Source of the DNA: Longivirga aurantiaca
GTDB taxonomy: Bacteria > Actinomycetota > Actinomycetes > S36-B12 > CAIYMF01
Reading direction: 5' to 3'
Length of the DNA stretch: 32,000 bases
Assembly: GCF_042660085.1 (NCBI RefSeq)
Contig: NZ_JBHSTI010000051.1
Span: 3,089 to 35,088 of the forward strand
Shown here: positions 8,598 through 21,144 of the stretch, piece by piece
How positions within the stretch are numbered: the first letter of the stretch is position 1
Layout: every line of letters begins with the position of its first letter
Program-made: the position numbers and the translations under genes
Notes under the pieces: model-generated
Database searches by the model: none
What the model was told of the DNA's origin: nothing
What the model saw: only the letters and a program-made list of their open reading frames with translations

Positions 8598-8638
8598 GCC
8601 GCTGAGCCCCCGTCACGGGGGTGCGGGGGCTCAGCGGC
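8598..8638 (+). terminator. Intrinsic-terminator-like hairpin
   Basis: GCCGCTGAGCCCCC (8598-8611) and GGGGGCTCAGCGGC (8625-8638) form a perfect 14-bp stem 2 nt after the stop of the small membrane gene. There is no clear U-tract. Confidence 0.6.
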
Positions 8639-8745: not shown

Positions 8746-9063
8746 ATGTCCGAGCAGCTGACCGACCCCACCGCTGAGGCGACCGAGGGCTGCGTCGGCT
8801 GCGGATGCGGCGCTGGCGGCTGCGGCGGGTCGGGCGCTGCCCCCGTCGTCGACCTCGGGGCCGTGAAGTCCGAGGTGCGCCGGGCCGTCGTCGAGGCGGT
8901 CGTCGCCGTCGTGCCCGTGGACGACGAGGTCGTGTTCGTCGCCCCGCACGAGGTGCTGCCGCTGATGCGCTCGCTGATCGACTCCGACGCCGGCGCGCTC
9001 CAGGCGTCGTACGACGAGGAGGGCCCCGAGCTCTGGGCCCTGCGGGTGCGCCGCCTCCGCTAG
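8746..9063 (+). CDS. DUF2249-like small protein with an N-terminal Cys/Gly-rich four-cysteine motif (paralog 1)
   Basis: The ATG at 8746 is preceded by GAGGAG. The N-terminus is GCVGCGCGAGGCGG. The core VVDL...EVRRAVV...VAPHEVLPL...YDEEGPELWALRVRR follows the DUF2249 pattern (LDVR..RH....HDP.PL....Y.E.GPE.W.V.I). About half of the core positions are identical to the ORF at 19593-19907. Confidence 0.75.
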   Translation: MSEQLTDPTAEATEGCVGCGCGAGGCGGSGAAPVVDLGAVKSEVRRAVVEAVVAVVPVDDEVVFVAPHEVLPLMRSLIDSDAGALQASYDEEGPELWALRVRRLR

Positions 9064-9079: not shown

Positions 9080-9835
9080 TCAGCCGCGGCGGATTGGCTC
9101 CCAGCCCCGCTGCGGGTCGCGGTTGCCGGTGACTGTCGTGTCACGGCTGCGGTAGACGAGGTACGGCCGCGAGACGTAGCCGACCGGTGCGCTGAAGATG
9201 TGCACGAGGCGCGTGAACGGCACGAGGGCGAAGAGCAGCATCGCGACCGCGGCGTGGAGCTGGAACGACAGGGGCGCACCCGTCATGTCGCCCGGGTCCG
9301 GGCTCAGCACGAAGAGGCTCCGGAACCACACTGCAACGGACTCTCGGTAGTTGTAGCCGTCCGGGTAGCCGCCGGTGAGGTTGAGCAGGTTGATGCCCAC
9401 GGTGTTGAAGACGCCCAGGCCGACGACGGCACCCAGGAACACGTACATGACCTTGTCCATCGTCGTGGTCACGGAGAACACGCGTCCGACCGTGCGGCGG
9501 CGGTAGATCAGGATCGACAGGCCCGTGACGACCATGACCGCTGCGATCACGCCGAAAGCCACCGCGGCCACGTGGTACATGTGCTCCGAGACGCCGATCG
9601 TCTCGGTCCACCCGGCGGGGATGAGCAGGCCGAGCACGTGACCGCCGAGCGCCAGCAGGATGCCGACGTGGAACAGCGGGCTGCCGATGCGCAGCAGCTT
9701 GGTCTCGTACATCTGCGAGGACCGCGTCGTCCAGCCGTAGGCGTCGTACTTGTAGCGCCAGAACATCCCGACGGCGAACGCCACGAGGCTGACGTAGGGC
9801 AGGACGACCCAGACGAACGTCTGCACGGTGGTCAT
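9080..9835 (-). CDS. narI: Respiratory nitrate reductase gamma subunit (dihaem b membrane anchor)
   Basis: 251 aa. VLPYVSLVAFAVGMFWRYKYD..GWTTRSSQ..E...LRIGSPLFHVGIL is the canonical NarI N-terminus. ATGA overlap with narJ. Confidence 0.95.
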   Translation of the reverse strand: MTTVQTFVWVVLPYVSLVAFAVGMFWRYKYDAYGWTTRSSQMYETKLLRIGSPLFHVGILLALGGHVLGLLIPAGWTETIGVSEHMYHVAAVAFGVIAAVMVVTGLSILIYRRRTVGRVFSVTTTMDKVMYVFLGAVVGLGVFNTVGINLLNLTGGYPDGYNYRESVAVWFRSLFVLSPDPGDMTGAPLSFQLHAAVAMLLFALVPFTRLVHIFSAPVGYVSRPYLVYRSRDTTVTGNRDPQRGWEPIRRG

Positions 9836-10479
9836 GCGTGCACACCTGCCTTCAGCGACTCGACGGGGAAGAACGGGGCGAGGCCGACCTGCTCGGCCGG
9901 CGGGCCGGCGAAGGCGAGCTCCTCCGCCGTGGGGCCGTCAGGAGCGGCGGGGACGACGGCGAGCAGCGCCGACACCGGATCGACATAGGGCGAGTCGAAC
10001 TTCGCGAGCGCGTGCTCGAGCAGCTCGAGCCCGGCCCGGTGCCGGGCCAGCATCTCCAGCGCCGCGTCGACGGGTCCGACGGCACCGAACTCGAGCACCA
10101 CCGGCAGGAAGTCGGGGAGCTCTTCCGGCCCGAGGTCGAACCCGGCCTCCTGATACCTCTCCTTGAAGCCGACGAGGGCCATCCCGCGGCTTCGCGTGTC
10201 GCCGTTGAGGAACCAGGTGAGGTAGAGGCATGCCTTGCGCCTGCGGTCGAAGATCTCGACGTAATGCGCCTGAGCATTGACGAGGTCCGTGCTCGAGAGC
10301 CACTCGGTCATGCGCCGCAGTGGTTCGCGCGAACCGTGGGGGAGCTCGTCGAGGCTGCGGCCGACGAGGTTCAGCCTGTCGACCGCTCCCTGGTCCGGGT
10401 ACGACAGCAGCATCGACGTGGTGGCGAGCAGGCGGCGTACCGCAGGCGCCTCGCTCTCGGGGAGATGGTGGGTGATCAC
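9832..10479 (-). CDS. narJ: Nitrate reductase molybdenum cofactor assembly chaperone
   Basis: 215 aa positioned between narH and narI, with a NarJ-like LLSYPD...AHYVEIFD motif. GTGA overlap with narH and ATGA overlap with narI. Confidence 0.9.
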   Translation of the reverse strand: MITHHLPESEAPAVRRLLATTSMLLSYPDQGAVDRLNLVGRSLDELPHGSREPLRRMTEWLSSTDLVNAQAHYVEIFDRRRKACLYLTWFLNGDTRSRGMALVGFKERYQEAGFDLGPEELPDFLPVVLEFGAVGPVDAALEMLARHRAGLELLEHALAKFDSPYVDPVSALLAVVPAAPDGPTAEELAFAGPPAEQVGLAPFFPVESLKAGVHA

Positions 10480-12050
10480 TGCGACCCTCCCGGGAGGTCG
10501 GCGTTCGAGTCGGCCTCGAAGCGCTGCTTGGTGAGATGGAAGCTCTCGATCGAGACGGGTACCGGCTTGCCGTCACCGACGACGGGCTGCATCCCCGGCC
10601 CGCCCTCGAAGTCGAGCGAGCATCCGGGCGACTCCTCCAGCGCGGCAGCCGCCTCCTGGTGCGCGCGCGGGATCACATATCGGCTCTCGTACTTCGCGAT
10701 CGCGAGCAGCCGGTACATCTCGTAGAGGTCCTCGCCCGTGAGGCCGACCGCCTCCGCGATCGACTCGTCGGTGTCGCGACCGAGGTTGATGTCGCGCATG
10801 TACGAGCGCATCGCTGCCAGCCGCTTGAGGACGCCGTCGACCACGGGCACGTCGCCTGCCGTGAGGAGGTTGGCCAGATAGCCGATGGGGATCCGTAGGG
10901 CGTCGATCGCGCCGAACAGGTTGCCGGCGTCCTCGGCGTCATGGCCGCTGTTGGCGAGCGCGTCCACCACCGGCGACAGCGGCGGGATGTACCAGACCAT
11001 CGGCATGGTGCGGTACTCCGGGTGCAGCGGCAGCGCGAGGCGGTACTTCTTGGCCAGCGTGTAGACGGGCGACTTCTGCGCCGCCTCGATCCAGTCGTCG
11101 GCGATCCCGTCGCGACGTGCCTGGGCGACGACCTCGGGGTCGTTCGGGTCGAGGAGCACGTCGAGCTGCGCCTCGTACAGGTCCTTGTCGTCCTCGACCG
11201 AAGCCGCGGCGAGCACCTTGTCCACGTCGTACAGGAAGAGGCCGATGTAGCGCAGGCGCCCGACGCAGGTCTCGGCGCAGACGGTCGGCTGACCCACCTC
11301 GAGGCGGGGGTAGCAGAACGTGCACTTCTCGGCCTTGCCGGTCTTGTGGTTGAAGTAGACCTTCTTGTACGGGCAGCCCGAGACGCACATGCGCCAGCCG
11401 CGGCAGCGGTCCTGGTCGACGAGCACGATGCCGTCCTCTGACCGTTTGTACATCGCGCCGGACGGGCAGGCGGCGACGCACGCCGGGTTGAGGCAGTGCT
11501 CGCAGATCCGCGGCAGGTAGAACATGAACGCCTTCTCGAGCTCGAAGACCACGCTGTCCTCGATGCCCTTGAGCATCGGATCGAGGTGGCCGCGCTCGTG
11601 CGTCCCGCCGAGGTCGTCGTCCCAGTTGGCGCCCCAGCGGATCTCGGTGTCCTTGCCCGTGATCATGGACTTCGGGCGGGCGACAGGGGTGGTGTCCATG
11701 GCCGGCGAGCTGATGAGGGTGTCGTAGTCGTACGTCCACGGCTCGTAGTAGTCGTCGAGCGACGGGAGCTTGGGGTTGCTGAAGATCTGGGTGAGCCGGC
11801 GGATGCGGCCGCCGCTGCGCAGCTTGAGCCGGCCGCGCTTCGTGCGGACCCAGCCGCCCTTCCACTGCTCCTGGTCCTCGTGCCGCTTGGGGTAGCCGAG
11901 ACCGGGCCGGGTCTCGACGTTGTTGAACCAGACGTACTCGACACCCGTGCGGTTGGTCCACGTCTGCTTGCACGTGACCGAGCAGGTGTGGCACCCGATG
12001 CACTTGTCGAGGTTCATCACCATGCCCACCTGGGCCATGACGCGTGTCAT
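10476..12050 (-). CDS. narH: Respiratory nitrate reductase beta (Fe-S) subunit
   Basis: Starts MTRVMAQVGMVMNLDKCIGCHTCSVTCK. Further ferredoxin Cys clusters are present (CEHCLNPACVAACPSGA, CRGWRMCVSGCPYKK, CTFCYPR...CAETCVGR). The ATG at 12050 overlaps the narG stop by 1 nt. The track's 200-aa upstream extension was rejected. Confidence 0.95.
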   Translation of the reverse strand: MTRVMAQVGMVMNLDKCIGCHTCSVTCKQTWTNRTGVEYVWFNNVETRPGLGYPKRHEDQEQWKGGWVRTKRGRLKLRSGGRIRRLTQIFSNPKLPSLDDYYEPWTYDYDTLISSPAMDTTPVARPKSMITGKDTEIRWGANWDDDLGGTHERGHLDPMLKGIEDSVVFELEKAFMFYLPRICEHCLNPACVAACPSGAMYKRSEDGIVLVDQDRCRGWRMCVSGCPYKKVYFNHKTGKAEKCTFCYPRLEVGQPTVCAETCVGRLRYIGLFLYDVDKVLAAASVEDDKDLYEAQLDVLLDPNDPEVVAQARRDGIADDWIEAAQKSPVYTLAKKYRLALPLHPEYRTMPMVWYIPPLSPVVDALANSGHDAEDAGNLFGAIDALRIPIGYLANLLTAGDVPVVDGVLKRLAAMRSYMRDINLGRDTDESIAEAVGLTGEDLYEMYRLLAIAKYESRYVIPRAHQEAAAALEESPGCSLDFEGGPGMQPVVGDGKPVPVSIESFHLTKQRFEADSNADLPGGSQ

Positions 12051-15000
12051 CAGTACTGCACCTCCTGCGACCGGCGACGGATAGTCGTCACCTCGTCGCG
12101 CTGGTTGCCGGTGGGGCCGTAGTAGTTGAAGCCGTACGACAGCTGCGCGTAGCCGCCGATGAGGTGGGTCGGCTTGAGCAGCAGCCGCGTGAGCGAGTTG
12201 TGGATGCCGCCGCGCTTCCCGGTCTTCTCGACCCGGGGGACGCCGACCGTGCGGTCCTTCGCGTGGTACATGTAGACAGTGCCCTCGGGCATGCGGTGGC
12301 TGACGACGGCGCGCGCGACGACGATGCCGTTGCGGTTGTGCGCCTCGATCCAGTCGTTGTCGCGCACGCCGATCTTCTCGGCGTCCTCGCGGCTCATCCA
12401 GATGTCGGGACCTCCGCGCGAGAGTGCCAGCATGAAGAGGTTGTCCTGGTACTCGGAGTGGATCGACCACTTCGAGTGCGGGGTCAGGTAGCGGACGACG
12501 ACCTGCTGCTCGTCGTGGTCGCCGATCGTCGGGTAGCCCGCGATGGCCGCGAGGTTGAGCGGCGGCCGGTACGTGGGGAAGCACTCGCCGACCTCGGCCA
12601 TCCAGTCGTGGTCGAGGAAGAAGTGCTGACGCCCCGTCAGCGTGTGCCACGGCTTCTTGCGCTCGACGTTGATGGTGAACGGAGAGTACCGGCGCCCTCC
12701 GTGCTCGCTACCCGACCACTCCCACGAGGTGATGACGGGCTGGGGCCGGCTCTGGGTGTCGGCGAACGTGATGTGCTTGCCCTCGTTGTCGCGCGCGAGG
12801 TCGGCGAGCACCTGTCCGGTGCGCTTCTCGAGGAACTCGAAGCCGGCCACGGCGACCGCGCCGTTGCTGACGCCGGAGAGGGTGAGGATCGCCTCGCACA
12901 CCTGCTCGGCCGTCTCGATCCGGGGGCGTCCGTCGGCCACGCCGCCCACGACCGTGCCGTTGACCTTCTTCAGGTGCTCCACGGACTTCGGCTGCCTGAG
13001 CGTGATTCCCTTGACCACCGTGCCGATGCTCTCGACGTTGGGCCCGAGGGCGCCCATCTTCGCGGCGATGGCCGAGTAGTCGCGCTCGACGACCACGAGG
13101 TTGGGCATGGTGCGGCCGGGGACCGGCTCGCACTCGCCGGCGCGCCAGTCGAGCACGCGGCCGCCGGGCTGGGAGATCTCGCTGGGGGTGTCGTGCTGCT
13201 GCGGCAGCGCGACGACGTCCTTGACGACACCGAGCCGTGGCCCGGCGAGCTCGGTGAACACCGCCGCCATCTTCTGGAAGACGTCGTGGTCGCTGCGGCA
13301 CTGCCACGGTGGCGAGATCGCCGCGTTGAACGCGTGGATGAACGGGTGCATGTCGGTCGAGGAGATGTCGTACTTCTCGTACCAGGTCGCGGCCGGGAGC
13401 AGCACGTCGCTGAACAGCCCGGTGCTCGTCATGCGGAAGTCGAGCGACACCAGGAGGTCGAGCTTCCCGGTGGGCGCCTCGTCCCGCCAGGCCACCGTCT
13501 TCGGCCGCTTGCCCTCGGGCGTCTGGCCGCCGTCGATGGCGCCGTCCGCACCGAGCAGGTGGTGCAGGAAGTACTCGTTGCCCTTCCCGCTCGAGCCGAG
13601 CAGGTTCGCGCGCCAGACCGTGAGCACTCGAGGGAAGTTCTCGGGCGCGTCCGGGTCCTCGACCGAGAACTTGAGACGGTCGGCCTTCAGCTCCTGCACC
13701 ACGTAGTCGGGAGCGGACATGCCTGCGGCCTCCGCGTCGGCAGCGAGCGTGATCGGGTTGCGGTCGAACGTGGGGTACGACGGCGTCCAGCCCATGCGGA
13801 CCGCCTGGGCCAGCGTGTCGGCCATGGCCTGGCCGGTGAACCGACCGGTCCCGAGCGGGGTCGCGACCTCGTCGGCGCCGAACGCGTCGTACCGCCACTG
13901 GTCGGTGTGGAGGTACCAGAACGATGTGCCGGCCATCTGGCGCGGCGGGCGCGACCAGTCGGCGCCGAAGGCGAGCTGCGCCCAGCCGGTGAACGGCCGG
14001 GCCTTCTCCTGACCCACGTAGTGGGCCCAGCCTCCGCCGTTCTTGCCCTGGCAGCCGGTGAGCAGCACCAGGCTGATGATCGCGCGGTAGATCGTGTCGG
14101 AGTGGTACCAGTGGTTGGTGCCGGCACCGAGCGTGATCATCGAGCGACCGCCGGAGTCCTCGGCGTTCTGCGCGAACTCGCGGGCGATGCGCTCGACGGT
14201 CGCCGCCGGGACGGAGGTGATCTCCTCCTGCCAGGCCGGCGTGTACGGCGCATCCGCGTCGTCGTACCCGGCGCCCCACGTGCCGGGCAGGCCGTCGCGG
14301 GCCACGCCGTACTGCGCGAGCAGGAGGTCGTAGACCGTGGTCACGAGCCGGTCGCCCATGCGGCGCACGGGCACACCTCGCCGGATGACGCTGCCGCGCT
14401 CGGTGCCGTTCTCTCCGGCGTCGAACCGAGGAAGGTCGACGGTCACAGTCTCGGCGCCGTCCGCGTGCATGGTGAGCAGCGGGTCGACGTCGCCGAGGTC
14501 GAGGTTCCAGTGGCCCATCCCGGACTCGTTGTGGCGGAAGCCGATCGAGCCGTCGGGCACGACCGTCTCGCCGGTCGCGGCATCGATGAGAACCGGCTTC
14601 CACTCGGCCGCCTCGACATCCTGGCCGAGGTCTGCGGCGTTGACGAAGCGGTCGGGGACGAACGACTCGCCGTGCGCGCGGAGCGAGACGAGGAAGGGCA
14701 GGTCGGTGTAGCGCTTGGAGTAGTCGACGAACATCGGCACCTGCCGCTGCACGTAGAACTCGCGCAGGATCACGTGGCCCATCGCCATGGCGAGCGCACC
14801 GTCGGTGCCCGGGTGCGCGGGCAGCCACTCGTCGGCGAACTTGGTGTTGTCGGCGTAGTCGGGGCTGACCGTCACGACCTTCTGGCCCTTGTAGCGGGCC
14901 TCGGTCATGAAGTGCGCGTCCGGGGTACGAGTCGTAGGGATGTTGGAGCCCCACATGATCAGGTAGCTCGCGTTCCACCAGTCGGCCGACTCGGGGACGT

Positions 15001-15745
15001 CGGTCTGATCGCCCCAGATCTGCGGCGACGCGATCGGCAGGTCGCAGTACCAGTCGTAGAACGACAGCATCGTGCCGCCGATGAGCGAGGTGTAGCGGGC
15101 TCCGGCTGCGTGCGAGGCCATCGACATCGCGGGGATCGGCGAGAACCCGGCGACGCGGTCGGGACCCCAGCGGTCGATCGTGTGCACCTGGGCGGCGGCC
15201 ACCATCTCGAGCGCCTCGTCCCAGGAGGCGCGGACGAGACCGCCCTTGCCGCGGGCGGACATGTAGGTGCGGCGCTTGGCGTCGTCGTCGACGATGCTCG
15301 CCCACGCCGCGACGGGGTCGCCCCCGTGGGCGACCTTGGCTGCGCGGTACATCTCGAGGAGCACACCGCGGATGTACGGGTAGCGCACGCGCGTCGGCGA
15401 GTAGGTGTACCAGGAGAAGGCGGCACCACGGGGGCAGCCGCGGGGCTCGTACTCGGGGGAGTCGGCGCCGACGGACGGGTAGTCGGTCTGCTGCGTCTCC
15501 CACGTGATGATGCCGTCCTTGACGTACACCTTCCACGAGCACGAGCCCGTGCAGTTCACGCCATGGGTGGAGCGCACGACGCGGTCGTGCGACCAGCGGT
15601 CGCGGTAGAAGACGTCGCCCTCGCGACCGCCGACGTAGTGCACCGCGCGGTGGTCGGGAGAGGTCTCGCTGCGGGTCAGGAACGAGCGGGCGCTGATGAG
15701 GGCGTCGACGAAGGGGTCGTCGATGCGCGTCGGGGTCTCGGTCAC
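12050..15745 (-). CDS. narG: Respiratory nitrate reductase alpha (Mo-bisMGD catalytic) subunit
   Basis: About 1231 aa from the GTG at 15745 (VTETPTRIDDPF). Has the FS0 motif HGVNCTGSCSWKVYVKDG and NarG-typical blocks throughout. The track ORF's extra 187 N-terminal codons overlap the regulator gene out of frame. Confidence 0.95.
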   Translation of the reverse strand: MTETPTRIDDPFVDALISARSFLTRSETSPDHRAVHYVGGREGDVFYRDRWSHDRVVRSTHGVNCTGSCSWKVYVKDGIITWETQQTDYPSVGADSPEYEPRGCPRGAAFSWYTYSPTRVRYPYIRGVLLEMYRAAKVAHGGDPVAAWASIVDDDAKRRTYMSARGKGGLVRASWDEALEMVAAAQVHTIDRWGPDRVAGFSPIPAMSMASHAAGARYTSLIGGTMLSFYDWYCDLPIASPQIWGDQTDVPESADWWNASYLIMWGSNIPTTRTPDAHFMTEARYKGQKVVTVSPDYADNTKFADEWLPAHPGTDGALAMAMGHVILREFYVQRQVPMFVDYSKRYTDLPFLVSLRAHGESFVPDRFVNAADLGQDVEAAEWKPVLIDAATGETVVPDGSIGFRHNESGMGHWNLDLGDVDPLLTMHADGAETVTVDLPRFDAGENGTERGSVIRRGVPVRRMGDRLVTTVYDLLLAQYGVARDGLPGTWGAGYDDADAPYTPAWQEEITSVPAATVERIAREFAQNAEDSGGRSMITLGAGTNHWYHSDTIYRAIISLVLLTGCQGKNGGGWAHYVGQEKARPFTGWAQLAFGADWSRPPRQMAGTSFWYLHTDQWRYDAFGADEVATPLGTGRFTGQAMADTLAQAVRMGWTPSYPTFDRNPITLAADAEAAGMSAPDYVVQELKADRLKFSVEDPDAPENFPRVLTVWRANLLGSSGKGNEYFLHHLLGADGAIDGGQTPEGKRPKTVAWRDEAPTGKLDLLVSLDFRMTSTGLFSDVLLPAATWYEKYDISSTDMHPFIHAFNAAISPPWQCRSDHDVFQKMAAVFTELAGPRLGVVKDVVALPQQHDTPSEISQPGGRVLDWRAGECEPVPGRTMPNLVVVERDYSAIAAKMGALGPNVESIGTVVKGITLRQPKSVEHLKKVNGTVVGGVADGRPRIETAEQVCEAILTLSGVSNGAVAVAGFEFLEKRTGQVLADLARDNEGKHITFADTQSRPQPVITSWEWSGSEHGGRRYSPFTINVERKKPWHTLTGRQHFFLDHDWMAEVGECFPTYRPPLNLAAIAGYPTIGDHDEQQVVVRYLTPHSKWSIHSEYQDNLFMLALSRGGPDIWMSREDAEKIGVRDNDWIEAHNRNGIVVARAVVSHRMPEGTVYMYHAKDRTVGVPRVEKTGKRGGIHNSLTRLLLKPTHLIGGYAQLSYGFNYYGPTGNQRDEVTTIRRRSQEVQY

Positions 15746-15746
15746 G

Positions 15747-16469
15747 TCACTGCTCCCAGGGCGTCGGGCTGTCGCCCGCGGTCTGCGGGGCCGGGGCCGG
15801 GCGCAGGTCGGGGCGGTTGAGGTGGGCGACGCAGAGGTCGTCCTTGATGAAGATGTCGAGGCGGCGCACGGTGACGCCCGACCCGAGCTCGTCGAAGAAG
15901 CCGTGCAGCATCTCGTGGTGCAGGCGGCAGATGGCGCGGTCCTGGCGGGCGAGGTCGGCGAAGGGGCAGGTCGAGAGGTAGAGGCGGTCGCCGAGCGGAT
16001 CGGTCGTGGTCTCGAAGCCGAGCACCTCGAGGCCGTCGACGGCCATCTCGATGCTGGCCTCGGGGGTGATCGCCTCGGCGCCCGGCGCGACCTTCTCGCG
16101 CTGCGCCTTGGCCAGCCGGTGGCCGGCGGCCTCCCCCGGGGAGTGCGCGGTGTCGCCGGCGGCGGCCGCGAGCTCGGCGGCCAGCGCGCGGTAGGGGTCG
16201 GCCGGCTCGGCCGCCTCGGTGGCGCGATAGAGCAGCTTGGGCCGGCCGGGCCGGGTGCGGTTCTCCGGCACGACCTCGACCCGGCCCATCTCGACCAGCA
16301 GCGCAAGGTGCGAGCGGACGGTATTGGCGTGCTGCCCGGTGCCGGCGGTGATCTCGGCGACCGTCAGCGCCTGGCCCTTCTGGGCGAGCAGGTCCAGCAC
16401 CCGGCGGCCGGTGGCCTCGGTCTCCCCCGCGCTCGGCTCGGGCCTCGCGAACCGGTCCTGCAGCGACAC
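15747..16469 (-). CDS. wHTH (ArsR/COG2345-like) transcriptional regulator with a C-terminal three-cysteine domain; ArnR/SufR-like candidate redox/NO sensor
   Basis: GTG start preceded by GAGGAGGGG. The N-terminal wHTH is RRVLDLLAQKGQALTVAEITAGTGQHANTVRSHLALLVEMGRV...GRPKLLYR. The C-terminal Cys residues are at 168, 181 and 213 (STCPF-x10-CRLHH-x28-LCVAH). Its stop lies 1 nt before the narG start. Confidence 0.75.
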   Translation of the reverse strand: MSLQDRFARPEPSAGETEATGRRVLDLLAQKGQALTVAEITAGTGQHANTVRSHLALLVEMGRVEVVPENRTRPGRPKLLYRATEAAEPADPYRALAAELAAAAGDTAHSPGEAAGHRLAKAQREKVAPGAEAITPEASIEMAVDGLEVLGFETTTDPLGDRLYLSTCPFADLARQDRAICRLHHEMLHGFFDELGSGVTVRRLDIFIKDDLCVAHLNRPDLRPAPAPQTAGDSPTPWEQ

Positions 16470-16665
16470 GACCCCTCCTCAAGAGGTTTTTTCCACCACG
16501 TCGTGATTTATCCCTGAGCCCGACCGTACGCCGTCCACTGACCTGGGCCAACAGGCACAGCATGTGGGCCATATCACTAGTAAAAAACAATTCTGAGGGT
16601 GGACATCCCGCCGGGTCCGAGGTCTAGCGTGACTCGTGATTGGTAAATAACACTTCGGAGGGGAC
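16470..16665. promoter_or_regulatory. Divergent control region between the regulator-narGHJI operon and narK
   Basis: 196 bp, visibly AT-enriched compared with its flanks. Contains TCGTGATT twice (16501-16508, 16634-16641), a CRP/FNR-like TGTGG-N6-TCACT (16563-16578) and an A-run ACTAGTAAAAAACAATT. Confidence 0.6.
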
Positions 16666-18060
16666 ATGAGCATCACCGCGGCGGAGAGCTCGCCCGAGGT
16701 CCGTCAGCCGAGCGGCACGGCGATCAGCGAGGACGTGTCCCCGGGGCGCTACCGGGTCCTGACCACCTCGACCCTCGCCTTCACGCTGATGTTCGCGGTG
16801 TGGCTGCAGTTCGGGATCCTCGGCCTGTCGATCCAGAAGGAGTTCGGCCTCTCCGACACCGCCTTCTACTGGCTCACGGCGCTGCCGGTGCTCAACGGCG
16901 CGATCTGGCGGCTGTGGACCGGGATCCTGGCCGACCGCTGGGGCGGGCGCATCGTGATGACCGGCCTGCTCCTCGCCGCCGCCGTACCCACCTTCCTGCT
17001 CTCGGGCGTCCAGAGCGCACCGATGCTGTTCGTGCTCGCGTTCCTGATCGGCTTCGCCGGCAACTCGTTCAGCTCGGGCATCGCCTGGAACAGCGCGTGG
17101 TTCCCGCGCAGCCAGCAGGGCTTCGCCCTCGGGGTCTTCGGCGCCGGCAACGTCGGGGCCTCGGTCACCAAGCTCATCGGCCCGGCGATCATCGCCGGCA
17201 CGGCCGGCTCGCTCTACCTCGGCGGTCGCGTCGAGGGCGGGTGGCGGCTCATCCCGGTGATCTACGCCGTCGCCCTCGTGATCATGGCCGCAGTGCTGTG
17301 GTTCGTGGCTCCGAGGCCGGACCACCGGCCCGGGGCGACCACCCCGATGCGCGAGCACCTGCAGCCGCTCAAGCGGATCCGGGTGTGGCGCTTCAGCCTC
17401 TACTACGTCGCTGTGTTCGGCGCGTACGTCGCGTTGTCGTCCGCCCTGCCGAAGTACTACGAGACCAACTACGGCGTGCCGCTGTGGCAGGCGGGGCTGC
17501 TCACCGCGCTGTTCATCTTCCCGGCGTCGCTGCTCCGGCCCGTGGGCGGCTGGCTCTCCGACAAGGTCGGCGCGCGCCGGATCATGTACTGGACGTTCGG
17601 CCTGATGCTGGTCTCGACAGGCGTCCTGATGATGCCGAGCGGCTACATCACCGTCGAGGTCTCGACGAGCGTGTCGCCCGACGGTACGGCCGAGATCCTC
17701 CCGTGGAGCCTCGGAATCGTGCCCTTCACCGCGTTCGTCGTGCTGCTCGGCTGCTCGATGGGCATCGGGAAGGCCGCCGTCTACAAGCACATCCCGGAGT
17801 ACTTCCCGCACGAGGTCGGCTCGGTCGGCGGCGTGGTCGGGATGCTCGGCGCCCTCGGCGGCTTCGTCCTGCTCCCGATGTTCGGGTACGCCGTGCAGAT
17901 CACGGGCCTTCCGACCGCGCTCTTCGGCGTGCTCTTCCTGCTGACGCTCGCCTGCGCCGTGTGGATGCACCTCACGGTCGTCCAGATGCTCCACGACAGC
18001 TCGCCCGAGCTGTCCGACCAGTTCGAGACCCCGGTGCAGATGCCGGAGTACACCCCGTGA
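16666..18060 (+). CDS. narK: NarK/NasA-family MFS nitrate/nitrite transporter (copy 1)
   Basis: 464 aa with 12 TM-like helices. GILADRWGGRIVM and GVFGAGNVGASV match nitrate-signature-type motifs. ATG preceded by GGAGGGG. Confidence 0.9.
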   Translation: MSITAAESSPEVRQPSGTAISEDVSPGRYRVLTTSTLAFTLMFAVWLQFGILGLSIQKEFGLSDTAFYWLTALPVLNGAIWRLWTGILADRWGGRIVMTGLLLAAAVPTFLLSGVQSAPMLFVLAFLIGFAGNSFSSGIAWNSAWFPRSQQGFALGVFGAGNVGASVTKLIGPAIIAGTAGSLYLGGRVEGGWRLIPVIYAVALVIMAAVLWFVAPRPDHRPGATTPMREHLQPLKRIRVWRFSLYYVAVFGAYVALSSALPKYYETNYGVPLWQAGLLTALFIFPASLLRPVGGWLSDKVGARRIMYWTFGLMLVSTGVLMMPSGYITVEVSTSVSPDGTAEILPWSLGIVPFTAFVVLLGCSMGIGKAAVYKHIPEYFPHEVGSVGGVVGMLGALGGFVLLPMFGYAVQITGLPTALFGVLFLLTLACAVWMHLTVVQMLHDSSPELSDQFETPVQMPEYTP

Positions 18061-18088
18061 CCCGGCCCATCTCCCTGAGGAGCACGAC

Positions 18089-19498
18089 ATGAGCAGCGCG
18101 ACCGACGAACGCCGCACCGGCGGCGAGTGGCTGGCGGACTGGGACCCGGAGGACGCCCAGCACTGGGACAAGGCCCTGGCGTGGCGGACCCTCTCGATCA
18201 CGACGGTCGGGCTCATGCTCGCCTTCTGCACCTGGTTCCTCGCGAGCGCGCTGGCGCCGGTGCTCGGCAACCTCGGCTTCACGATCACCAAGGACCAGCT
18301 CTACTGGCTCACCGCCATGCCGGGTCTCGCCGGCGGCACGCTGCGCCTCATCTGGATGTGGCTGCCGCCGATCATGGGCACGCGCAAGCTCGTGTCGCTC
18401 ACCACGCTCCTGCTCGTGATCCCGCTCATCGGCTGGGCCGTCGCCGTGCAGAACCCCAGCACGAGCTACAGCACGTTCATGATCCTGGCGTTCCTGTCCG
18501 GCATCGGCGGCGGCGCGTTCTCCGGCTTCATGCCGAGCACGTCGTACTTCTTCCCGCGGCGGCTGCAGGGCACGGCGCTCGGGCTCCAGGCGGGGCTCGG
18601 CAACTTCGGCGTCTCGGTCGTGCAGTTCGTGACGCCGTGGATCGTCGGCTTCAGCCTGCTCGGAGTGCTCGGTGCCGCGCAGACGTTCCACAACCCGGCG
18701 ACCAACGTCAACAAGGACGTCTGGTACCAGAACGCGGCGTACATCTACGTGCCGTTCGTCGTGATCGTCGCGATCCTCGCCTGGACGATGCTCAAGAGCG
18801 TGCCGGTGCGCGCCAACTTCCGCCAGCAGCTGGACATCTTCAAGAACGTCGACACCTGGTGGATGACCGCCCTCTACGTGATGACGTTCGGCACCTTCGC
18901 CGGCCTCTCGGCGCAGTTCGGCCTGCTCATCAAGAACCTGTACGGCGCAGGCAATCCCGACATCGTCGCGACCGCGGCCGACGGCTCGACCACGGTGCTG
19001 GTCGCCGGGTACGCCGTACCTCTCGCCCTGACGTATGCGTTCATCGGCCCCCTCGTCGGTGCCGGTGCCCGCGTGCTGTTCAGCCCGCTCACCGACCGGT
19101 GGGGCGGCGCGCGCTGGACGCTCGTCTCGGGCATCGGCATCGCGGCCTCGATCGTCTACACGATGCAGTATGTGCAGCCCGATGTGGCTGCGGGTGCTGA
19201 GGCGTTGACGGCCCAGTTCCACAGCTTCCTGTTCGGCTTCATCGCGATCTTCTTCTTCACGGGAATCGGCAACGCCTCGACGTTCAAGCAGATGCCGATG
19301 ATCTTCGAACGCCGTCAGGCTGGAGGCGTCATCGGATGGACATCGGCCATCGCGGCATACGGGCCCTTCCTGTTCGGTGTGGGCCTCGCGACGCTGTCGG
19401 TGTCGGGCTTCCTCACCGTGCTGCTCGTCTTCGTCCTCGCCTGCGTCGCGCTGACGTGGGTGCGTTACGCGCGCCCCGGCGCGCCGAAGCCCTCCTGA
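18089..19498 (+). CDS. narK: NarK-family MFS nitrate/nitrite transporter (copy 2)
   Basis: 469 aa. WDPEDAQHWDK...WRTLSITT is a typical NarK2-type N-terminus, and GLQAGLGNFGVSVVQ is a nitrate-signature motif. It starts 28 nt after copy 1 and has its own GAGGAG. Confidence 0.9.
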   Translation: MSSATDERRTGGEWLADWDPEDAQHWDKALAWRTLSITTVGLMLAFCTWFLASALAPVLGNLGFTITKDQLYWLTAMPGLAGGTLRLIWMWLPPIMGTRKLVSLTTLLLVIPLIGWAVAVQNPSTSYSTFMILAFLSGIGGGAFSGFMPSTSYFFPRRLQGTALGLQAGLGNFGVSVVQFVTPWIVGFSLLGVLGAAQTFHNPATNVNKDVWYQNAAYIYVPFVVIVAILAWTMLKSVPVRANFRQQLDIFKNVDTWWMTALYVMTFGTFAGLSAQFGLLIKNLYGAGNPDIVATAADGSTTVLVAGYAVPLALTYAFIGPLVGAGARVLFSPLTDRWGGARWTLVSGIGIAASIVYTMQYVQPDVAAGAEALTAQFHSFLFGFIAIFFFTGIGNASTFKQMPMIFERRQAGGVIGWTSAIAAYGPFLFGVGLATLSVSGFLTVLLVFVLACVALTWVRYARPGAPKPS

Positions 19499-19500: not shown

Positions 19501-19545
19501 GGGTGGGGGGAGCGGCAACCCCCTCACGGACCGCTCCCCCCACCC
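19501..19545 (+). terminator. Perfect 15-bp-stem hairpin between narK2 and the DUF2249/moeA genes (terminator or attenuator)
   Basis: GGGTGGGGGGAGCGG (19501-19515) pairs with CCGCTCCCCCCACCC (19531-19545) around a 15-nt loop. It starts 3 nt after the narK2 stop. Confidence 0.6.
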
Positions 19546-19592: not shown

Positions 19593-19907
19593 ATGACCGA
19601 GGACCTGCCCGATCCGACGACCTCGCCGACGGCCTCGAGCGGCTGCGGCTGCGGCACCTGCGGGTGCGGCGCGGCGAGCGAAGCGCCTGTGCTCGACGTG
19701 CGGACGATCCCGCGCGAGGTGCGGCATGCGGCAGTGATCGGTGCCGTCGGAGCCGTCCCCGTCGACGGCTCGATCGTCCTGCTGGCTCCGCACGACCCGC
19801 TGCCGTTGCTGCGCGAGCTCGACACCCTCTGGCCTGGGGTGCTGACGGTCGCATACGACGAGTCCGGACCGGAGACATGGGCGGTCCGCCTGCTTCGGAC
19901 ACGCTGA
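19593..19907 (+). CDS. DUF2249-like small protein with an N-terminal four-cysteine motif (paralog 2)
   Basis: The N-terminus is SGCGCGTCGCG. The core VLDVRTIPREVRHAAV...LLAPHDPLPL...YDESGPETWAVRLLR fits the DUF2249 pattern. GGAGG lies 6 nt upstream of the ATG at 19593. An alternative ATG is at 19587. Confidence 0.75.
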   Translation: MTEDLPDPTTSPTASSGCGCGTCGCGAASEAPVLDVRTIPREVRHAAVIGAVGAVPVDGSIVLLAPHDPLPLLRELDTLWPGVLTVAYDESGPETWAVRLLRTR

Positions 19908-19914: not shown

Positions 19915-21096
19915 ATGACCACCCTCGACACCCGTTCGACGACCCTCGTAGGTGCGGACTGGGCATCGGCGCGCACGGTCGCCCACGGCTGCCTTCCGCC
20001 CTTGGCCGCCGAGCACGTCTCGGTCGGACACGCCCACCGGCGCGTGCTCGCCTCGGATCTCGTCGCTGCGACGGCGCTTCCGGCGTTCACGTCATCCGCC
20101 ATGGACGGCTGGGCGGTGAGCGGTCCAGGTCCGTGGACGGTGACCGGAACCCTCCTCGCTGGAGGTTCCGCAGGGCCGCTGGCACCGGGAGAGGCGGTGG
20201 TGATCGCCACGGGCGCCCAGGCCCCGGGAGGTGCCACCGCAGTGCTGAGGTCCGAGGACGGCGTGGTGGTCGACGGCCGGCTCGAGGGACACGTGCGCGA
20301 CGGCGACCACCTTCGGCTGGCCGGTGAGGAGGCTCATCGGGGCGAGCTGATGGCACCCGCCGGCGTCGTCCTCACCGCCGGTCATCTCGGGCTCGCAGCG
20401 GCTGCCGGCTACGACGTGGTCCCGGTGGTACGCCGGCCGACGGTGGCCGTGCTGGTGCTCGGCGACGAGCTGCTCGACCACGGGGTGTCTGCGCGCGGCC
20501 GCGTGCGCGACTCTCTCGGGCCGCAGCTGCCGGCCTGGCTCGACCTGCTCGGCTGTTCCATACGGTCGGTGGCGCGCGTGCCGGATTCGCTGGCCGCCCT
20601 CGTCGAGGCGCTGATCTCGGTGGGCGACGTCGACCTGGTGGTGACCACCGGCGGCACCGCCGCCGGCCCGGTCGACCTCCTGCACCGGGCGATCGAGGCC
20701 CTTGCCGGGAGGCTGGTGGTCGACTCCGTCGCGGTGCGGCCGGGTCACCCCATGCTGCTCGCACGCCTCGCGCACCGCGTCGCGCTGCTCGGCCTCCCGG
20801 GCAACCCGCAGGCAGCGGTCGCCGCGCTGCTGACGCTCGGCGCGCCCCTCGTCGACGCGCTGCTCGGCCGCCCGCTCGCGGTGCTCGACCAGGTCCGGTC
20901 ACGTGAGGCGCTGGCTGCGCCCGGCCGGGCGACGCGGCTCGTGCTCGCGCGGCGTGGCGATGCCGGCGCGATCGCCGTCGCGCACCAGGGGTCGGCCATG
21001 CTCCGCGGCCTCGCGGAGGCGGACGGCTACCTGGTCGTCCCAACCGGTGGGTGTGCTGCCGACGACAGGCTTGCCTGGCTGCCCCTCCCACGATGA
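19915..21096 (+). CDS. moeA: Molybdopterin molybdotransferase
   Basis: 393 aa. Shows TSSAMDGWAV, the MoCF_biosynth block VLVLGDEL...VVTTGGTAAGPVD and LGLPGNPQAAVAAL. It starts 7 nt after the DUF2249 stop. Confidence 0.9.
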   Translation: MTTLDTRSTTLVGADWASARTVAHGCLPPLAAEHVSVGHAHRRVLASDLVAATALPAFTSSAMDGWAVSGPGPWTVTGTLLAGGSAGPLAPGEAVVIATGAQAPGGATAVLRSEDGVVVDGRLEGHVRDGDHLRLAGEEAHRGELMAPAGVVLTAGHLGLAAAAGYDVVPVVRRPTVAVLVLGDELLDHGVSARGRVRDSLGPQLPAWLDLLGCSIRSVARVPDSLAALVEALISVGDVDLVVTTGGTAAGPVDLLHRAIEALAGRLVVDSVAVRPGHPMLLARLAHRVALLGLPGNPQAAVAALLTLGAPLVDALLGRPLAVLDQVRSREALAAPGRATRLVLARRGDAGAIAVAHQGSAMLRGLAEADGYLVVPTGGCAADDRLAWLPLPR

Positions 21097-21144
21097 GGCC
21101 CGGATCGGGCGCACGGTGGAGGGGCGTGCCGGATACTCCGCAGG

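What the first reader, a model, noticed from the sequence alone, without database searches (positions are those of the whole stretch)
8746..9063. Cys4 + DUF2249-like small protein (paralog 1): one of two paralogs bracketing the whole nar-narK-moeA locus
Two ~105-aa proteins, at 8746-9063 and 19593-19907, share one architecture that I do not recognise as characterised. Each has a disordered acidic/Thr-rich leader, then a compact four-cysteine Cys/Gly motif: G-C-V-G-C-G-C-G-A-G-G-C-G here, and S-G-C-G-C-G-T-C-G-C-G in the other. A DUF2249-like core follows (..LDV/VDL..EVRH/R....APHD/E.LPL....YDE.GPE.WA.R..R). By eye about half of the core positions are identical between the two.

They sit at the two edges of the nitrate-respiration locus. 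This copy is convergent with narI, with a 16-nt gap. The other lies between narK2 and moeA.

DUF2249 has no assigned function. To my recollection it has a TusA/ScdA-N-like small alpha/beta fold and often neighbours hemerythrin or NO-related genes. Four closely spaced thiols could bind a metal or an Fe-S cluster, or carry persulfide.

The position next to moeA and the Mo-bisMGD/Fe-S enzyme NarGHI suggests an accessory factor for cofactor handling or nitrosative-stress protection. This is a hypothesis only.
Basis: partly seen in the sequence, partly recalled or inferred. Interest (0 to 1): 0.7.

Follow-up and report, generated by a model that had tools for sequence, protein, structure and literature searches.

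The report
Cysteine-tailed DrpA-like nitrate-respiration accessory proteins
Two small paralogous proteins in an actinobacterial nitrate-respiration locus are relatives of DrpA, a Thermus protein shown by genetics to affect nitrate respiration, and they carry an undescribed cysteine-rich tail that probably binds a metal or iron-sulfur centre.

Summary
Both ORFs (8746-9063 and 19593-19907) are real, conserved and under purifying selection. They are 44% identical DUF2249 proteins, each with a disordered 4-Cys leader.

The interpretation needs correction.
- DUF2249 next to nar genes is not uncharted. Paralog 2 is 43% identical to Thermus DrpA and sits in the same place, after the nitrate transporter gene and a hairpin.
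- "Cys4" is a local expansion of a CxC motif. That motif lies about 8-10 residues before the core in 80% of the nearest family representatives.
- Most of those relatives are hemerythrin-CxC-DUF2249 fusions.
- The commonest neighbours are not nar or moeA. In 80 loci they are an ArnR/SufR-like Fe-S regulator (59) and a NirK-like copper nitrite reductase fusion (55). NarG is near 18 and MoeA near 6.
- The window has its own ArnR-like gene, coupled to narG.
- "Bracketing" is not conserved.

Best reading, which is inference only: a TusA-fold accessory protein that binds a metal or Fe-S centre and serves nitrate/nitrite respiration under NO stress. A DrpA-type sensor role is the main rival.

It is a new variant of a known kind, of moderate interest.

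The parts
8746..9063 (+). Paralog 1 CDS (105 aa): a divergent DUF2249 protein with a 4-Cys leader. It has lost both helix-1 histidines (VKSEVRR) and keeps only His68 (APH).
8791..8823 (+). Paralog 1 Cys/Gly motif CVGCGCGAGGC (Cys16, 19, 21, 26). It contains a CxxCGC pattern and is encoded by TGCGGC-type repeats.
   Evidence: all four Cys are conserved in orthologues P0001-P0003
8842..9060 (+). Paralog 1 DUF2249 core (residues 33-105), TusA-like beta-alpha-beta-alpha-beta-beta
8598..8638 (.). Perfect 15-bp GC-rich hairpin between the DUF6458 gene and paralog 1. It looks like a terminator but has no T-tail.
19593..19907 (+). Paralog 2 CDS (104 aa): a DrpA-like DUF2249 protein with a 4-Cys leader. 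It keeps His45 (RH) and His67 (APH).
19644..19667 (+). Paralog 2 Cys/Gly motif CGCGTCGC (Cys18, 20, 23, 25). It looks like a duplicated CGCG unit and contains a CxxCGC pattern.
   Evidence: conserved in P0004-P0010
19686..19904 (+). Paralog 2 DUF2249 core (residues 32-104)
   Evidence: 66.5 bits; 43% identity to DrpA
19501..19545 (.). Perfect 15-bp GC-rich hairpin between narK2 and paralog 2. Thermus has inverted repeats in the same place, between narT and drpA.
15747..16469 (-). ArnR/SufR-like winged-helix regulator (240 aa) with three C-terminal Cys (C-x12-C-x31-C) and a His after the second Cys. Its stop codon lies 1 nt before the narG GTG start.
   Evidence: literature
9080..15745 (-). narG (12050-15745), narH (10476-12050), narJ (9832-10479) and narI (9080-9835): the respiratory nitrate reductase
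16666..19498 (+). narK1 (16666-18060) and narK2 (18089-19498), nitrate/nitrite transporters. They are divergent from the regulator-narGHJI unit and lie upstream of paralog 2.
16470..16665 (.). Divergent promoter region with A/T-rich boxes conserved in syntenic relatives: CACTAGTAAAAAACAA at 16575-16590 and TTGGTAAATAACAC at 16640-16653
19915..21096 (+). moeA (molybdopterin molybdenumtransferase), starting 7 nt after the paralog 2 stop codon

Best explanation
**What they are.** Paralogs 1 and 2 are lineage-specific duplicates of a DrpA-type DUF2249 protein with a TusA-like fold.

**The leader.** The flexible N-terminal leader is an expanded form of a CxC motif. That motif defines an actinobacterial DUF2249 subfamily, which is usually fused behind a hemerythrin di-iron domain.

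**Proposed mechanism (inferred).**
- The leader thiols bind a metal ion or a small Fe-S centre. They are helped by the histidines at the start of helix 1 and in the APH loop, which is the face where TusA carries its active cysteine.
- The protein uses this centre to supply, protect or repair the metal centres of the nitrate/nitrite respiratory enzymes when respiration produces nitrite and NO. This would make it a functional cousin of RIC/YtfE.
- Paralog 2 is probably expressed together with narK1-narK2 and moeA from the promoter region shared with the ArnR-like, presumably NO-sensitive, regulator.
- Paralog 1 is a more divergent copy in which cysteines may have taken over from the lost histidines.

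**Shown versus inferred.**
- Shown: homology, fold class, motif conservation, fusions, genomic context and purifying selection.
- Inferred: metal or cluster binding, NO responsiveness and the repair/delivery role.
For: **Homology**
- DUF2249 membership.
- 43% identity to DrpA, E 3e-16, with the same gene position after the nitrate transporter gene.

**DrpA genetics**
- The Thermus double drpAB mutant has about one-tenth of wild-type nitrate reductase activity although NarG protein is made.
- The authors note an extra role in enzyme maturation.
- DrpA is unstable in oxygen.

**Motif**
- CxC is present in 105 of 131 nearest 50%-identity representatives.
- In 83 of these the spacing is 9-10 residues.
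- The motif is nearly invariant in alignments A1 and A2.
- All four Cys are kept in orthologues under purifying selection.

**Cys/His trade-off**
- Extra leader cysteines go with loss of the helix-1 histidines: odds ratio 12.6, p 6e-8 on 206 sequences.
- After clustering at 70% identity the odds ratio is 6.3, p 0.03.

**Fusions to iron-centre modules**
- Hemerythrin-CxC-DUF2249.
- Three to five tandem DUF2249 domains followed by ScdA_N plus hemerythrin, which is a full RIC module.

**Context**
- 69 of 80 loci have NarGHI, a NirK-like protein or an ArnR-like regulator within 10 kb.
- The window has an ArnR-like gene coupled to narG.
- ArnR is a [4Fe-4S] repressor of narKGHJI and hmp, and NO abolishes its DNA binding.

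**From my own knowledge, not tested here**
- CGCGE resembles the C-terminal cluster-ligand motif of A-type Fe-S carriers.
- CxxCGC resembles the HypB N-terminal metal site.
Against: - There is no direct evidence of metal or cluster binding.
- AF2 leaves the Cys segment unplaced both in the short form (pLDDT below 50) and in the long form (residues 162-175 below 50, pTM 0.63). So no structural site has been shown.
- The window contains no hemerythrin, NirK-like or DrpB partner.
- The conserved operator of the long-form genes is absent from the window. Control by the ArnR-like regulator is therefore only inferred from position and A/T-rich boxes.
- The DrpA phenotypes are mainly regulatory, and its authors favour a sensor role.
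- The Cys-gain/His-loss association weakens once relatedness is taken into account.
- YtfE was not among the top 50 structural matches.
Confidence: 0.4

Rival explanations
1. Sensor or signal-transducing partner, the DrpA model. The Cys/His site senses NO, redox state, oxygen or a metal. The TusA-like domain passes this state by protein contact to a transcription factor, either the ArnR-like regulator or the SARP/STAND regulator downstream of moeA, and so tunes nar/narK expression.
For: - Paralog 2's closest genetically studied homologue is DrpA. Loss of drpA de-represses Pnar and Pdnr, and loss of drpAB makes expression independent of nitrate.
- Gene position is the same and identity is 43%.
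- In relatives, DUF2249 is fused to sensor-type domains such as hemerythrin and cupin. Thermus authors also report fusions to response regulators.
- Two regulators flank the operon in the window.
- 59 of 80 loci carry the ArnR-like regulator, usually transcribed divergently.
Against: - The window has no DrpB partner.
- The DrpA regulatory effects could be indirect. If the enzyme is not matured, or NO is not removed, the signals seen by the regulators change.
- No DNA-binding or known signalling domain is present.
- The mechanism proposed for DrpA (periplasmic nitrate sensing without a signal peptide) is itself unproven.
Confidence: 0.28
2. Copper handling. The CxC motif and neighbouring histidines bind Cu(I). 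The protein would then act as a chaperone or buffer for the NirK-like copper nitrite reductase that most relatives encode next door.
For: - A NirK-like fusion lies within 10 kb in 55 of 80 loci. It is often in the same apparent operon, two genes downstream.
- Many long forms have His-rich linkers directly before the CxC, for example GGHHHAEGGHSCGCG and HGHGHEHGHEH.
- From my own knowledge, Cys-x-Cys runs are typical of metallothionein-like Cu(I) binders.
Against: - The window has no NirK-like gene in 32 kb.
- DrpA acts on nitrate respiration itself: its mutant phenotypes are on NarG expression and nitrate reductase activity, and the drp genes co-transfer with the nar operon.
- NarGHI needs no copper.
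- Fusions are to iron proteins, not copper proteins.
Confidence: 0.1
3. Sulfur relay for molybdenum cofactor synthesis. As a protein with the TusA fold, encoded 7 nt upstream of moeA, paralog 2 would carry persulfide sulfur on its leader cysteines towards molybdopterin synthesis for NarG.
For: - The fold is TusA/SirA-like.
- Paralog 2 is immediately adjacent to moeA, and this is conserved in the closest relatives L001, L002, L066, L070, L072 and L082.
- From my own knowledge, E. coli TusA influences molybdenum cofactor biosynthesis.
Against: - The defining TusA CPxP cysteine is absent. That position holds His in most of the family, Arg in paralog 2 and Ser in paralog 1.
- MoeA is nearby in only 6 of 80 loci.
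- No moaD, moeB or cysteine desulfurase gene was identified in the 32-kb window; this rests on a provisional reading of translated ORFs, only some of them confirmed by a family search.
- The hemerythrin, RIC and NirK associations have no link to sulfur transfer.
Confidence: 0.08
4. The Cys/Gly run is a by-product of repeat slippage in GC-rich DNA (TGCGGC units) with no specific role, and paralog 1 is a decaying duplicate.
For: - The motif is encoded by TGCGGC-like hexanucleotide repeats.
- The leader is predicted to be disordered.
- Paralog 1 falls below the Pfam cutoff and has lost two conserved histidines.
- Only 3 clusters of paralog 1 exist in 5.8 billion proteins.
Against: - dN/dS is 0.26-0.34 for paralog 1.
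- Every Cys is retained across orthologues while neighbouring residues change.
- CxC is conserved at a fixed distance from the core in 80% of representatives spanning many actinobacterial genera.
Confidence: 0.04

Closest known systems
DrpA of Thermus thermophilus (denitrification regulatory protein A; DUF2249; PMC6282519)
   Same: - It is a single-domain DUF2249 protein.
- It is 43% identical to paralog 2 over 67 residues.
- Its gene lies directly after the last nitrate/nitrite transporter gene of the nar cluster, behind an inverted repeat.
- It shares the two conserved histidines (RH and [D/P]H-DP) with paralog 2.
   Different: - DrpA has no Cys-rich leader. Its likely start is directly at the core, MELDVR.
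- It works with DrpB (DUF1858 plus two DUF2249 domains), which the window lacks.
- Paralog 1 has lost the RH histidine and matches DrpA only over its C-terminal 34 residues.
Hemerythrin-CxC-DUF2249 proteins of Mycobacterium, Blastococcus, Nocardioides, Streptomyces and others (annotated 'cation-binding protein' or 'DUF2249 domain-containing protein'; uncharacterised)
   Same: - They have the same DUF2249 clade and the same CxC motif at the same distance from the core.
- They share the same kind of ArnR-like neighbouring regulator, which is 33% identical to the window's.
   Different: - They carry an N-terminal hemerythrin domain of about 170 aa.
- They usually have only 2 Cys and all three histidines.
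- Their operons continue with a membrane protein and a NirK-like fusion.
- They have a conserved palindromic operator that the window lacks.
RIC / YtfE / ScdA (repair of iron centres; ScdA_N plus hemerythrin di-iron protein)
   Same: - Both combine a small alpha/beta domain with a hemerythrin domain in NO-stress contexts.
- Some proteins fuse 3-5 DUF2249 domains directly to ScdA_N plus hemerythrin.
   Different: - The window proteins have no hemerythrin domain.
- In the long forms the domain order is reversed.
- The NCBIfam RIC model scores only 18 bits against a 205-bit cutoff.
- YtfE is not among the top structural matches.
TusA / SirA / YeeD (TsuB) sulfur-carrier fold
   Same: These are the best whole-domain structural matches: 2lxr (TM 0.74), 3hz7 (0.69), YeeD in 8j4c/8k1r, and TusA 3lvj_C (0.67).
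   Different: - The catalytic Cys of the CPxP motif is absent. The cysteines here sit in a disordered leader, not at helix 1.
- All Foldseek E-values are above 1e-3.
Cys motifs of metal and cluster carriers: HypB N-terminal CxxCGC and the A-type Fe-S carrier CGCG(E/Q)SF (recalled, not tested)
   Same: The pattern is identical: P1 has C16-x-x-C19-G-C21, P2 has C20-G-T-C23-G-C25, and the family consensus is C-G-C-G-E.
   Different: - There is no GTPase or Fe-S_biosyn domain and no Pfam or NCBIfam hit to either family.
- The resemblance is a short motif only.

Membership tests
DUF2249 (Pfam PF10006) | Whole-protein HMM score at or above the gathering cutoff (29.5 bits) | tested here: met
   - Paralog 2 scores 66.5 bits.
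- Paralog 1 alone scores 23.2 bits (E 6e-5), below the cutoff.
- Paralog 1 is nevertheless 44% identical to paralog 2 (E 8e-25), and its orthologues P0001-P0003 carry a precomputed PF10006 hit.
DUF2249 (Pfam PF10006) | Conserved core motifs LD[VA]R...RH and [AD]-x-H-D-P-x-P-L, then GPE-W-x-[VL]R | tested here: inconclusive
   - Paralog 2 has all of them.
- Paralog 1 keeps APH-E-x-LPL and GPELW-LR but has VDLG...RR in place of LDVR...RH.
DrpA-type nar-linked DUF2249 (Thermus) | Sequence homology to DrpA across the domain | tested here: met
   - Paralog 2: 43% identity over 67 aa, E 3e-16.
- Paralog 1: only the C-terminal 34 aa align, E 2e-7.
DrpA-type nar-linked DUF2249 (Thermus) | Gene immediately downstream of the nitrate/nitrite transporter gene of the nar cluster | tested here: met
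   - Paralog 2 follows narK2 after a 94-nt gap containing a hairpin, as drpA follows narT.
- Paralog 1 does not. It is convergent with narI here and lies elsewhere in L082.
DrpA-type nar-linked DUF2249 (Thermus) | Partner gene drpB (DUF1858 plus two DUF2249 domains) overlapping or adjacent | tested here: not met
   tblastn of DrpB against the window finds nothing below E 0.05.
DrpA-type nar-linked DUF2249 (Thermus) | Deletion alters nar/dnr promoter control and nitrate reductase activity | not testable with these tools
   This needs genetics. It is known only for Thermus.
Actinobacterial CxC-DUF2249 subfamily (defined here) | CxC motif about 8-10 residues upstream of the first core strand | tested here: met
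   - 105 of 131 representatives have it.
- Both window proteins have it, with the last Cys 8 residues before the [LV]D.
Actinobacterial CxC-DUF2249 subfamily (defined here) | N-terminal hemerythrin (PF01814) domain | tested here: not met
   - The window proteins are stand-alone.
- There is no hemerythrin-like sequence anywhere in the window.
- 59 of 131 representatives are also short forms.
TusA/SirA sulfurtransferase family | Two-layer alpha/beta sandwich fold | tested here: inconclusive
TusA/SirA sulfurtransferase family | Catalytic cysteine in a CPxP motif at the N-terminus of helix 1 | tested here: not met
   The sequence there is IPREVRH in paralog 2, VKSEVRR in paralog 1 and IPHAIRH in the family. 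There is no Cys in the core.
RIC / YtfE (TIGR03652) | ScdA_N domain followed by a di-iron hemerythrin domain; HMM above cutoff | tested here: not met
   - Neither window protein matches NCBIfam.
- The long-form relative scores 18.4 bits against a 204.7-bit cutoff.
ArnR / SufR-like COG2345 regulators (for the neighbouring gene 15747-16469) | N-terminal winged helix plus a C-terminal sensory domain with three conserved Cys and a non-Cys fourth ligand | tested here: inconclusive
   - Winged-helix Pfam hits are present.
- C-x12-C-x31-C with His after the second Cys is seen in the sequence, compared with Cys179/193/223 in ArnR.
- There is a faint SufR_cyano hit for the L005 homologue.
- A direct comparison with the C. 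glutamicum ArnR sequence was not possible.

The most novel reading that the evidence does not exclude
The leader CxC (here expanded to Cys4), together with the histidines on the TusA-like face, forms a previously unrecognised metal or Fe-S binding site. The site reacts with NO. On this reading, CxC-DUF2249 is a new class of NO-responsive cluster-donor or sensor module. It serves respiratory nitrate and nitrite reductases across Actinomycetota under ArnR-type control. The Longivirga stand-alone Cys4 versions could hold the centre without a hemerythrin partner.
Probability: 0.25. Interest if true: 0.7.

Novelty: new variant of a known kind. Interest (0 to 1): 0.45.

Why it matters
**An open question about DUF2249.** DUF2249 proteins recur next to nitrate, nitrite and NO respiration genes in Thermus, haloarchaea and, as shown here, many actinobacteria including environmental mycobacteria. 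Their biochemistry is unknown. The only genetic study left open whether they sense, or help to mature, the reductase.

**A testable handle.** The actinobacterial subfamily adds one:
- a conserved CxC motif beside three conserved histidines;
- frequent fusion to a di-iron domain;
- a dedicated Fe-S regulator with a conserved operator.

If the site binds iron or a cluster, this would give a mechanism for DrpA-type proteins. It would also give a second, RIC-independent route for protecting Fe-S and molybdenum enzymes from self-generated NO.

**If the site binds nothing.** The finding is then an ordinary lineage-specific decoration of a known accessory gene.

Tried and rejected
1. **Long-form operator in the window.** I searched the window for TTTnCCACGG-N7-TGTAGTAAATT, both by pattern with up to 3 mismatches and with a position weight matrix built from 27 sites. 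It is absent: the best score was 2.2, against 38.8-60.1 for the training sites. Control of paralog 2 by the ArnR-like protein therefore cannot be claimed from that motif.
2. **AF2 and the Cys segment.** I hoped AF2 would place the Cys segment against the histidines or the di-iron site. In both models it is unplaced.
4. **NnrS label.** I first labelled the 360-aa membrane neighbour 'NnrS-like'. It has no Pfam or NCBIfam hit, so I dropped the label.
5. **DrpB.** It is absent from the window, and paralog 1 is not DrpB-like.
6. **Cys-gain/His-loss trade-off.** It is strong on raw counts but only p 0.03 after clustering at 70% identity, and uninformative at looser clustering. I keep it as suggestive only.
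7. **Consensus promoter/terminator scans.** These found nothing near either gene.
8. **Secreted protein or RiPP precursor.** I considered and rejected both. There is no hydrophobic signal segment, and no gene resembling a peptide-maturation enzyme was recognised in the window on a provisional reading of translated ORFs, most of them not run through a family search.
9. **Literature.** Searches for PF10006 and for hemerythrin/ScdA/DUF1858/TusA combinations gave nothing relevant.
10. **SCO0212.** This S. coelicolor hemerythrin gene lies next to narK2/nar2 and is in the OsdR regulon. It may belong to the long-form family, but I could not check its sequence.
Full report
**1. What is in the sequence**

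The window has 71% G+C. It comes from Longivirga aurantiaca (Sporichthyales, Actinomycetota), because paralog 2 is 100% identical to that species' annotated 'DUF2249 domain-containing protein'.

Both ORFs exist as described.
- Paralog 1 is 8746-9063(+), 105 aa, with a GAGGAG ribosome-binding site 6 nt upstream.
- Paralog 2 is 19593-19907(+), 104 aa. The ATG at 19587 lies too close to the GGAGG, and NCBI also aa.
- The Cys/Gly runs read CVGCGCGAGGC and CGCGTCGC.
- The two proteins are 44% identical, E 8e-25.
- Pfam DUF2249 scores 66.5 bits for paralog 2. It scores 23.2 bits for paralog 1, below the 29.5 cutoff. NCBIfam has no model for either.
- AF2 gives a disordered leader (residues 1-30, pLDDT below 50). 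The beta-alpha-beta-alpha-beta-beta core has pLDDT about 80-86.
- Both genes are under purifying selection: dN/dS is 0.26-0.34 for paralog 1 and 0.17 for paralog 2. Every cysteine is retained in all orthologues while the residues between them change.

**2. Gene map**

The plus-strand and minus-strand genes around the finding are as follows.
- The minus strand carries an ArnR/SufR-like regulator (15747-16469). Its stop is 1 nt before the narG GTG start.
- It is followed by narG (12050-15745), narH (10476-12050), narJ (9832-10479) and narI (9080-9835).
- Divergent from these, on the plus strand, lie narK1, narK2, a 15-bp perfect hairpin and paralog 2. Then, 7 nt after the paralog 2 stop, come moeA and a SARP/STAND regulator.
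- Paralog 1 lies after a diacylglycerol-kinase-like gene, a DUF6458 membrane-protein gene and another 15-bp perfect hairpin. It is convergent with narI across a 16-nt gap.

These assignments rest.

**3. The core is a known kind**

The held literature has only two papers on DUF2249.

One characterises T. thermophilus DrpA.
- DrpA is a 72-aa DUF2249 protein encoded directly after the nar operon's last transporter gene.
- It is co-expressed with DrpB (DUF1858 plus two DUF2249 domains).
- Single deletions de-repress the nar and dnr promoters.
- The double deletion makes expression independent of nitrate. It leaves about one-tenth of nitrate reductase activity even though NarG is made.
- DrpA is unstable in oxygen.

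The other paper shows that all four Haloferax DUF2249 genes are induced under denitrification. [quoted passage not shown]

I took the DrpA sequence from the paper's supplement.
- Paralog 2 is 43% identical to it over 67 residues, E 3e-16. That is as close as paralog 2 is to paralog 1.
- Paralog 2 keeps both histidines that the authors marked as conserved.
- Paralog 1 aligns only over its C-terminal 34 residues.
- No DrpB homologue is in the window.

So the statement that DUF2249 has no assigned function is outdated, and the nar linkage is not new.

**4. The leader is the new part, and the conserved unit is CxC, not Cys4**

An exhaustive profile search of 1.84 billion representatives found 1,565 relatives at E of 1e-3 or better. 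I analysed the 131 single-domain proteins among the best 150.
- 105 (80%) have a CxC within 30 residues upstream of the core.
- In 83 of these, the second Cys lies 9-10 residues before the [LV]D[VA]R strand.
- Only 3 have four cysteines, and 30 have three.
- The consensus around the motif is (G/H)-H-x-C-x-C-G-(E/H)-x-D.
- 72 of the 131 are long proteins.

Pfam shows the long proteins are hemerythrin plus CxC plus DUF2249, some with an extra N-terminal cupin. The tandem-repeat DUF2249 proteins and DrpA lack the CxC.

In the window, the Cys-Gly run is encoded by TGCGGC-type repeats. Duplication of a CGCG unit is therefore a simple origin for the four-Cys versions.

**5. Histidines and cysteines**

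Most of the subfamily has three histidines: IP-H-xx-R-H at the start of helix 1, and A-P-H-D-P after strand 2.

I aligned the sequence by eye to E. coli TusA, whose sequence I recalled from memory. In that alignment the first of these histidines falls at the position of TusA's catalytic cysteine. This is inference, not a computed superposition.

Paralog 2 has lost one of the three histidines. Paralog 1 has lost two (VKSEVRR).

Across 206 non-identical sequences, three or more leader cysteines go with loss of a helix-1 histidine: odds ratio 12.6, p 6e-8. After single-linkage clustering at 70% identity, the odds ratio is 6.3 and p is 0.03. At looser clustering there are too few groups to test.

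This suggests that the leader thiols and the helix-1 histidines belong to one site, and that Cys can substitute for His. The evidence is weak once relatedness is considered.

AF2 does not place the Cys segment in the short form. It does not place it in a long form either: both domains have pLDDT above 90, the linker 162-175 is below 50, and pTM is 0.63.

**6. Fold**

No relative has a solved structure by sequence search.

By Foldseek, the best whole-domain matches of the core are TusA/SirA-like.
- They are 2lxr, 3hz7, YeeD in 8j4c/8k1r, and TusA 3lvj_C.
- TM scores are 0.67-0.74, but E-values are above 1e-3.

The hemerythrin half of the long form matches the Rv2633c-like protein 6q09. YtfE does not appear in the top 50.

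**7. Genomic context elsewhere**

A scan of one genome per species found 450 relatives, and 80 loci were kept. Nearly all are Actinomycetota. The counts within 10 kb are:

| Neighbour | Loci (of 80) |
|---|---|
| ArnR/SufR-like regulator | 59 |
| NirK-like copper nitrite reductase fused to a membrane domain and a cupredoxin domain | 55 |
| 360-aa multi-pass membrane protein with no Pfam hit | 47 |
| NarG | 18 |
| NarK | 13-14 |
| MoeA | 6 |
| Any of NarGHI, NirK-like or ArnR-like | 69 |

- The NirK-like protein scores E 7e-52 against TIGR02376, which is below that equivalog model's cutoff.
- The regulator is usually divergent from the long-form gene.
- The intergenic region holds a strongly conserved palindrome, TTT(T/A)CCACGG-N7-TGTAGTAAATT, in Mycobacterium, Blastococcus, Nocardioides, Streptomyces, Oerskovia and others.
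- The window's regulator is 33% identical to these regulators, E 1e-13.
- The window lacks this palindrome. Its narK promoter region has other A/T-rich boxes that are conserved in the syntenic relatives L081 and L001.

From the literature, C. glutamicum ArnR is a [4Fe-4S] repressor of narKGHJI and hmp. NO abolishes its DNA binding. It belongs to the SufR-like COG2345 group, which contacts A/T-rich DNA through AT-hooks.

The arrangement narK-DUF2249(-moeA) recurs in Nanopelagicales-type genomes and in Ornithinimicrobium.

The position of paralog 1 is not fixed. It is the same in L081. In L082 it sits between a homocysteine methyltransferase gene and marR, downstream of paralog 2. Only three 90%-identity clusters of paralog 1 exist in the large protein collection. 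Paralog 1 is therefore a narrow-lineage divergent duplicate, and 'bracketing' is incidental.

**8. Fusions pointing to iron-centre chemistry**

DUF2249 is fused to several iron-related modules.
- It is fused behind hemerythrin.
- In other phyla, three to five tandem copies are fused to a complete RIC module, ScdA_N plus hemerythrin (P0043, P0045, P0049).

Two motif resemblances come from my own knowledge and are untested. CGCGE resembles the C-terminal cluster-ligand motif of A-type carriers. The CxxCGC present in both window proteins resembles the HypB N-terminal metal site.

**9. Most likely function**

I commit to the following reading, at about 0.4.

These are metal- or Fe-S-binding accessory proteins of nitrate/nitrite respiration. 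They are built on a TusA-like platform. They supply, protect or repair the enzymes' metal centres when nitrite and NO accumulate. Paralog 2 is expressed with narK1-narK2 and moeA under the ArnR-like regulator.

What is shown: homology to DrpA, fold class, motif conservation, fusions, context and selection.

What is inferred: ligand binding, NO response and the repair/delivery output.

The main rival, at about 0.28, is the DrpA-style sensor that signals to a regulator. It uses the same site but with a regulatory output. The Thermus data fit both readings.

The minor rivals are:
- copper handling for the NirK-like enzyme (0.1);
- sulfur relay to molybdenum cofactor synthesis (0.08);
- a functionless repeat or decaying paralog (0.04).

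Each has specific counter-evidence: no NirK-like gene in the window, no CPxP cysteine and MoeA near only 6 of 80 loci, and purifying selection with conserved Cys.

**10. Novelty and verdict**

The family and its link to nar genes are known, so this is not categorically new.

I could not find the following described in the held literature:
- the conserved CxC leader of an actinobacterial DUF2249 subfamily;
- its predominant hemerythrin-fused form;
- its partnership with ArnR-like regulators, a conserved operator and NirK-like fusions;
- the stand-alone Cys4, His-depleted versions seen here.

I rate it a new variant of a known kind, with interest 0.45.

Noticed in passing
window 15747-16469 (-) and 16470-16665: An ArnR/SufR-like regulator gene with three C-terminal Cys lies immediately upstream of narG, with a 1-nt gap. 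It is divergent from narK1. The shared promoter region has A/T-rich boxes conserved in L081 and L001: CACTAGTAAAAAACAA at 16575-16590 and TTGGTAAATAACAC at 16640-16653.
   Followed up: partly
L005 about 9430-9470 and the equivalent upstream regions of about 35 other loci (e.g. L013, L017, L023, L058): A strongly conserved 26-31 bp palindromic, A/T-rich element, TTT(T/A)CCACGG-N7-TGTAGTAAATT. It sits between the ArnR-like regulator gene and the hemerythrin-CxC-DUF2249 gene across many actinobacterial genera, and is a likely operator overlapping the promoter. It is absent from the window.
   Followed up: partly
L005 5080-7650 (-) and 7647-8735 (-); homologues in 55 and 47 of 80 loci: Two genes lie next to the ArnR-like regulator gene, on the far side of it from the long-form gene. 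One is an ~860-aa fusion of a polytopic membrane domain, a cupredoxin and a NirK-like copper nitrite reductase domain. The other is a 360-aa multi-pass membrane protein with no Pfam or NCBIfam hit.
   Followed up: partly
window 8598-8638 and 19501-19545: Two unrelated, perfect 15-bp GC-rich hairpins, with 11- and 15-nt loops and no T-tail. Each lies about 50-110 nt upstream of one of the two paralogs.
   Followed up: no
window 21097-23523 (+): A SARP/AfsR-type regulator (OmpR-like winged helix plus STAND NTPase plus C-terminal repeats) starts right after moeA. The arrangement is conserved in L082. It may belong to the same transcription unit as paralog 2.
   Followed up: no
L082 5434-5751: In a relative, the paralog-1 orthologue (75% identical) has a different location, between a homocysteine S-methyltransferase gene and marR. 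The gene has therefore moved within the neighbourhood.
   Followed up: yes
P0043, P0045, P0049 (representative proteins, not in the window): Proteins with 3-5 tandem DUF2249 domains fused to a complete ScdA_N plus hemerythrin (RIC-type) module. Others carry a cupin in front of hemerythrin-CxC-DUF2249.
   Followed up: partly
window 8785-8830 and 19635-19675: The Cys-Gly runs are encoded by TGCGGC-like hexanucleotide repeats. Repeat slippage is a plausible way for the motif to expand from CxC to four Cys.
   Followed up: no
window 16666-19498: Two tandem narK-type MFS transporter genes (narK1, narK2) precede paralog 2. The same pair is found in the Nanopelagicales-type and Ornithinimicrobium loci.
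   Followed up: no
Streptomyces loci L049, L075; literature SCO0212: In S. coelicolor, a 'hemerythrin cation-binding' gene (SCO0212) is listed downstream of narK2 (SCO0213) next to nar2, in the OsdR dormancy regulon. It may be a member of the long-form family, but I could not check the sequence.
   Followed up: no
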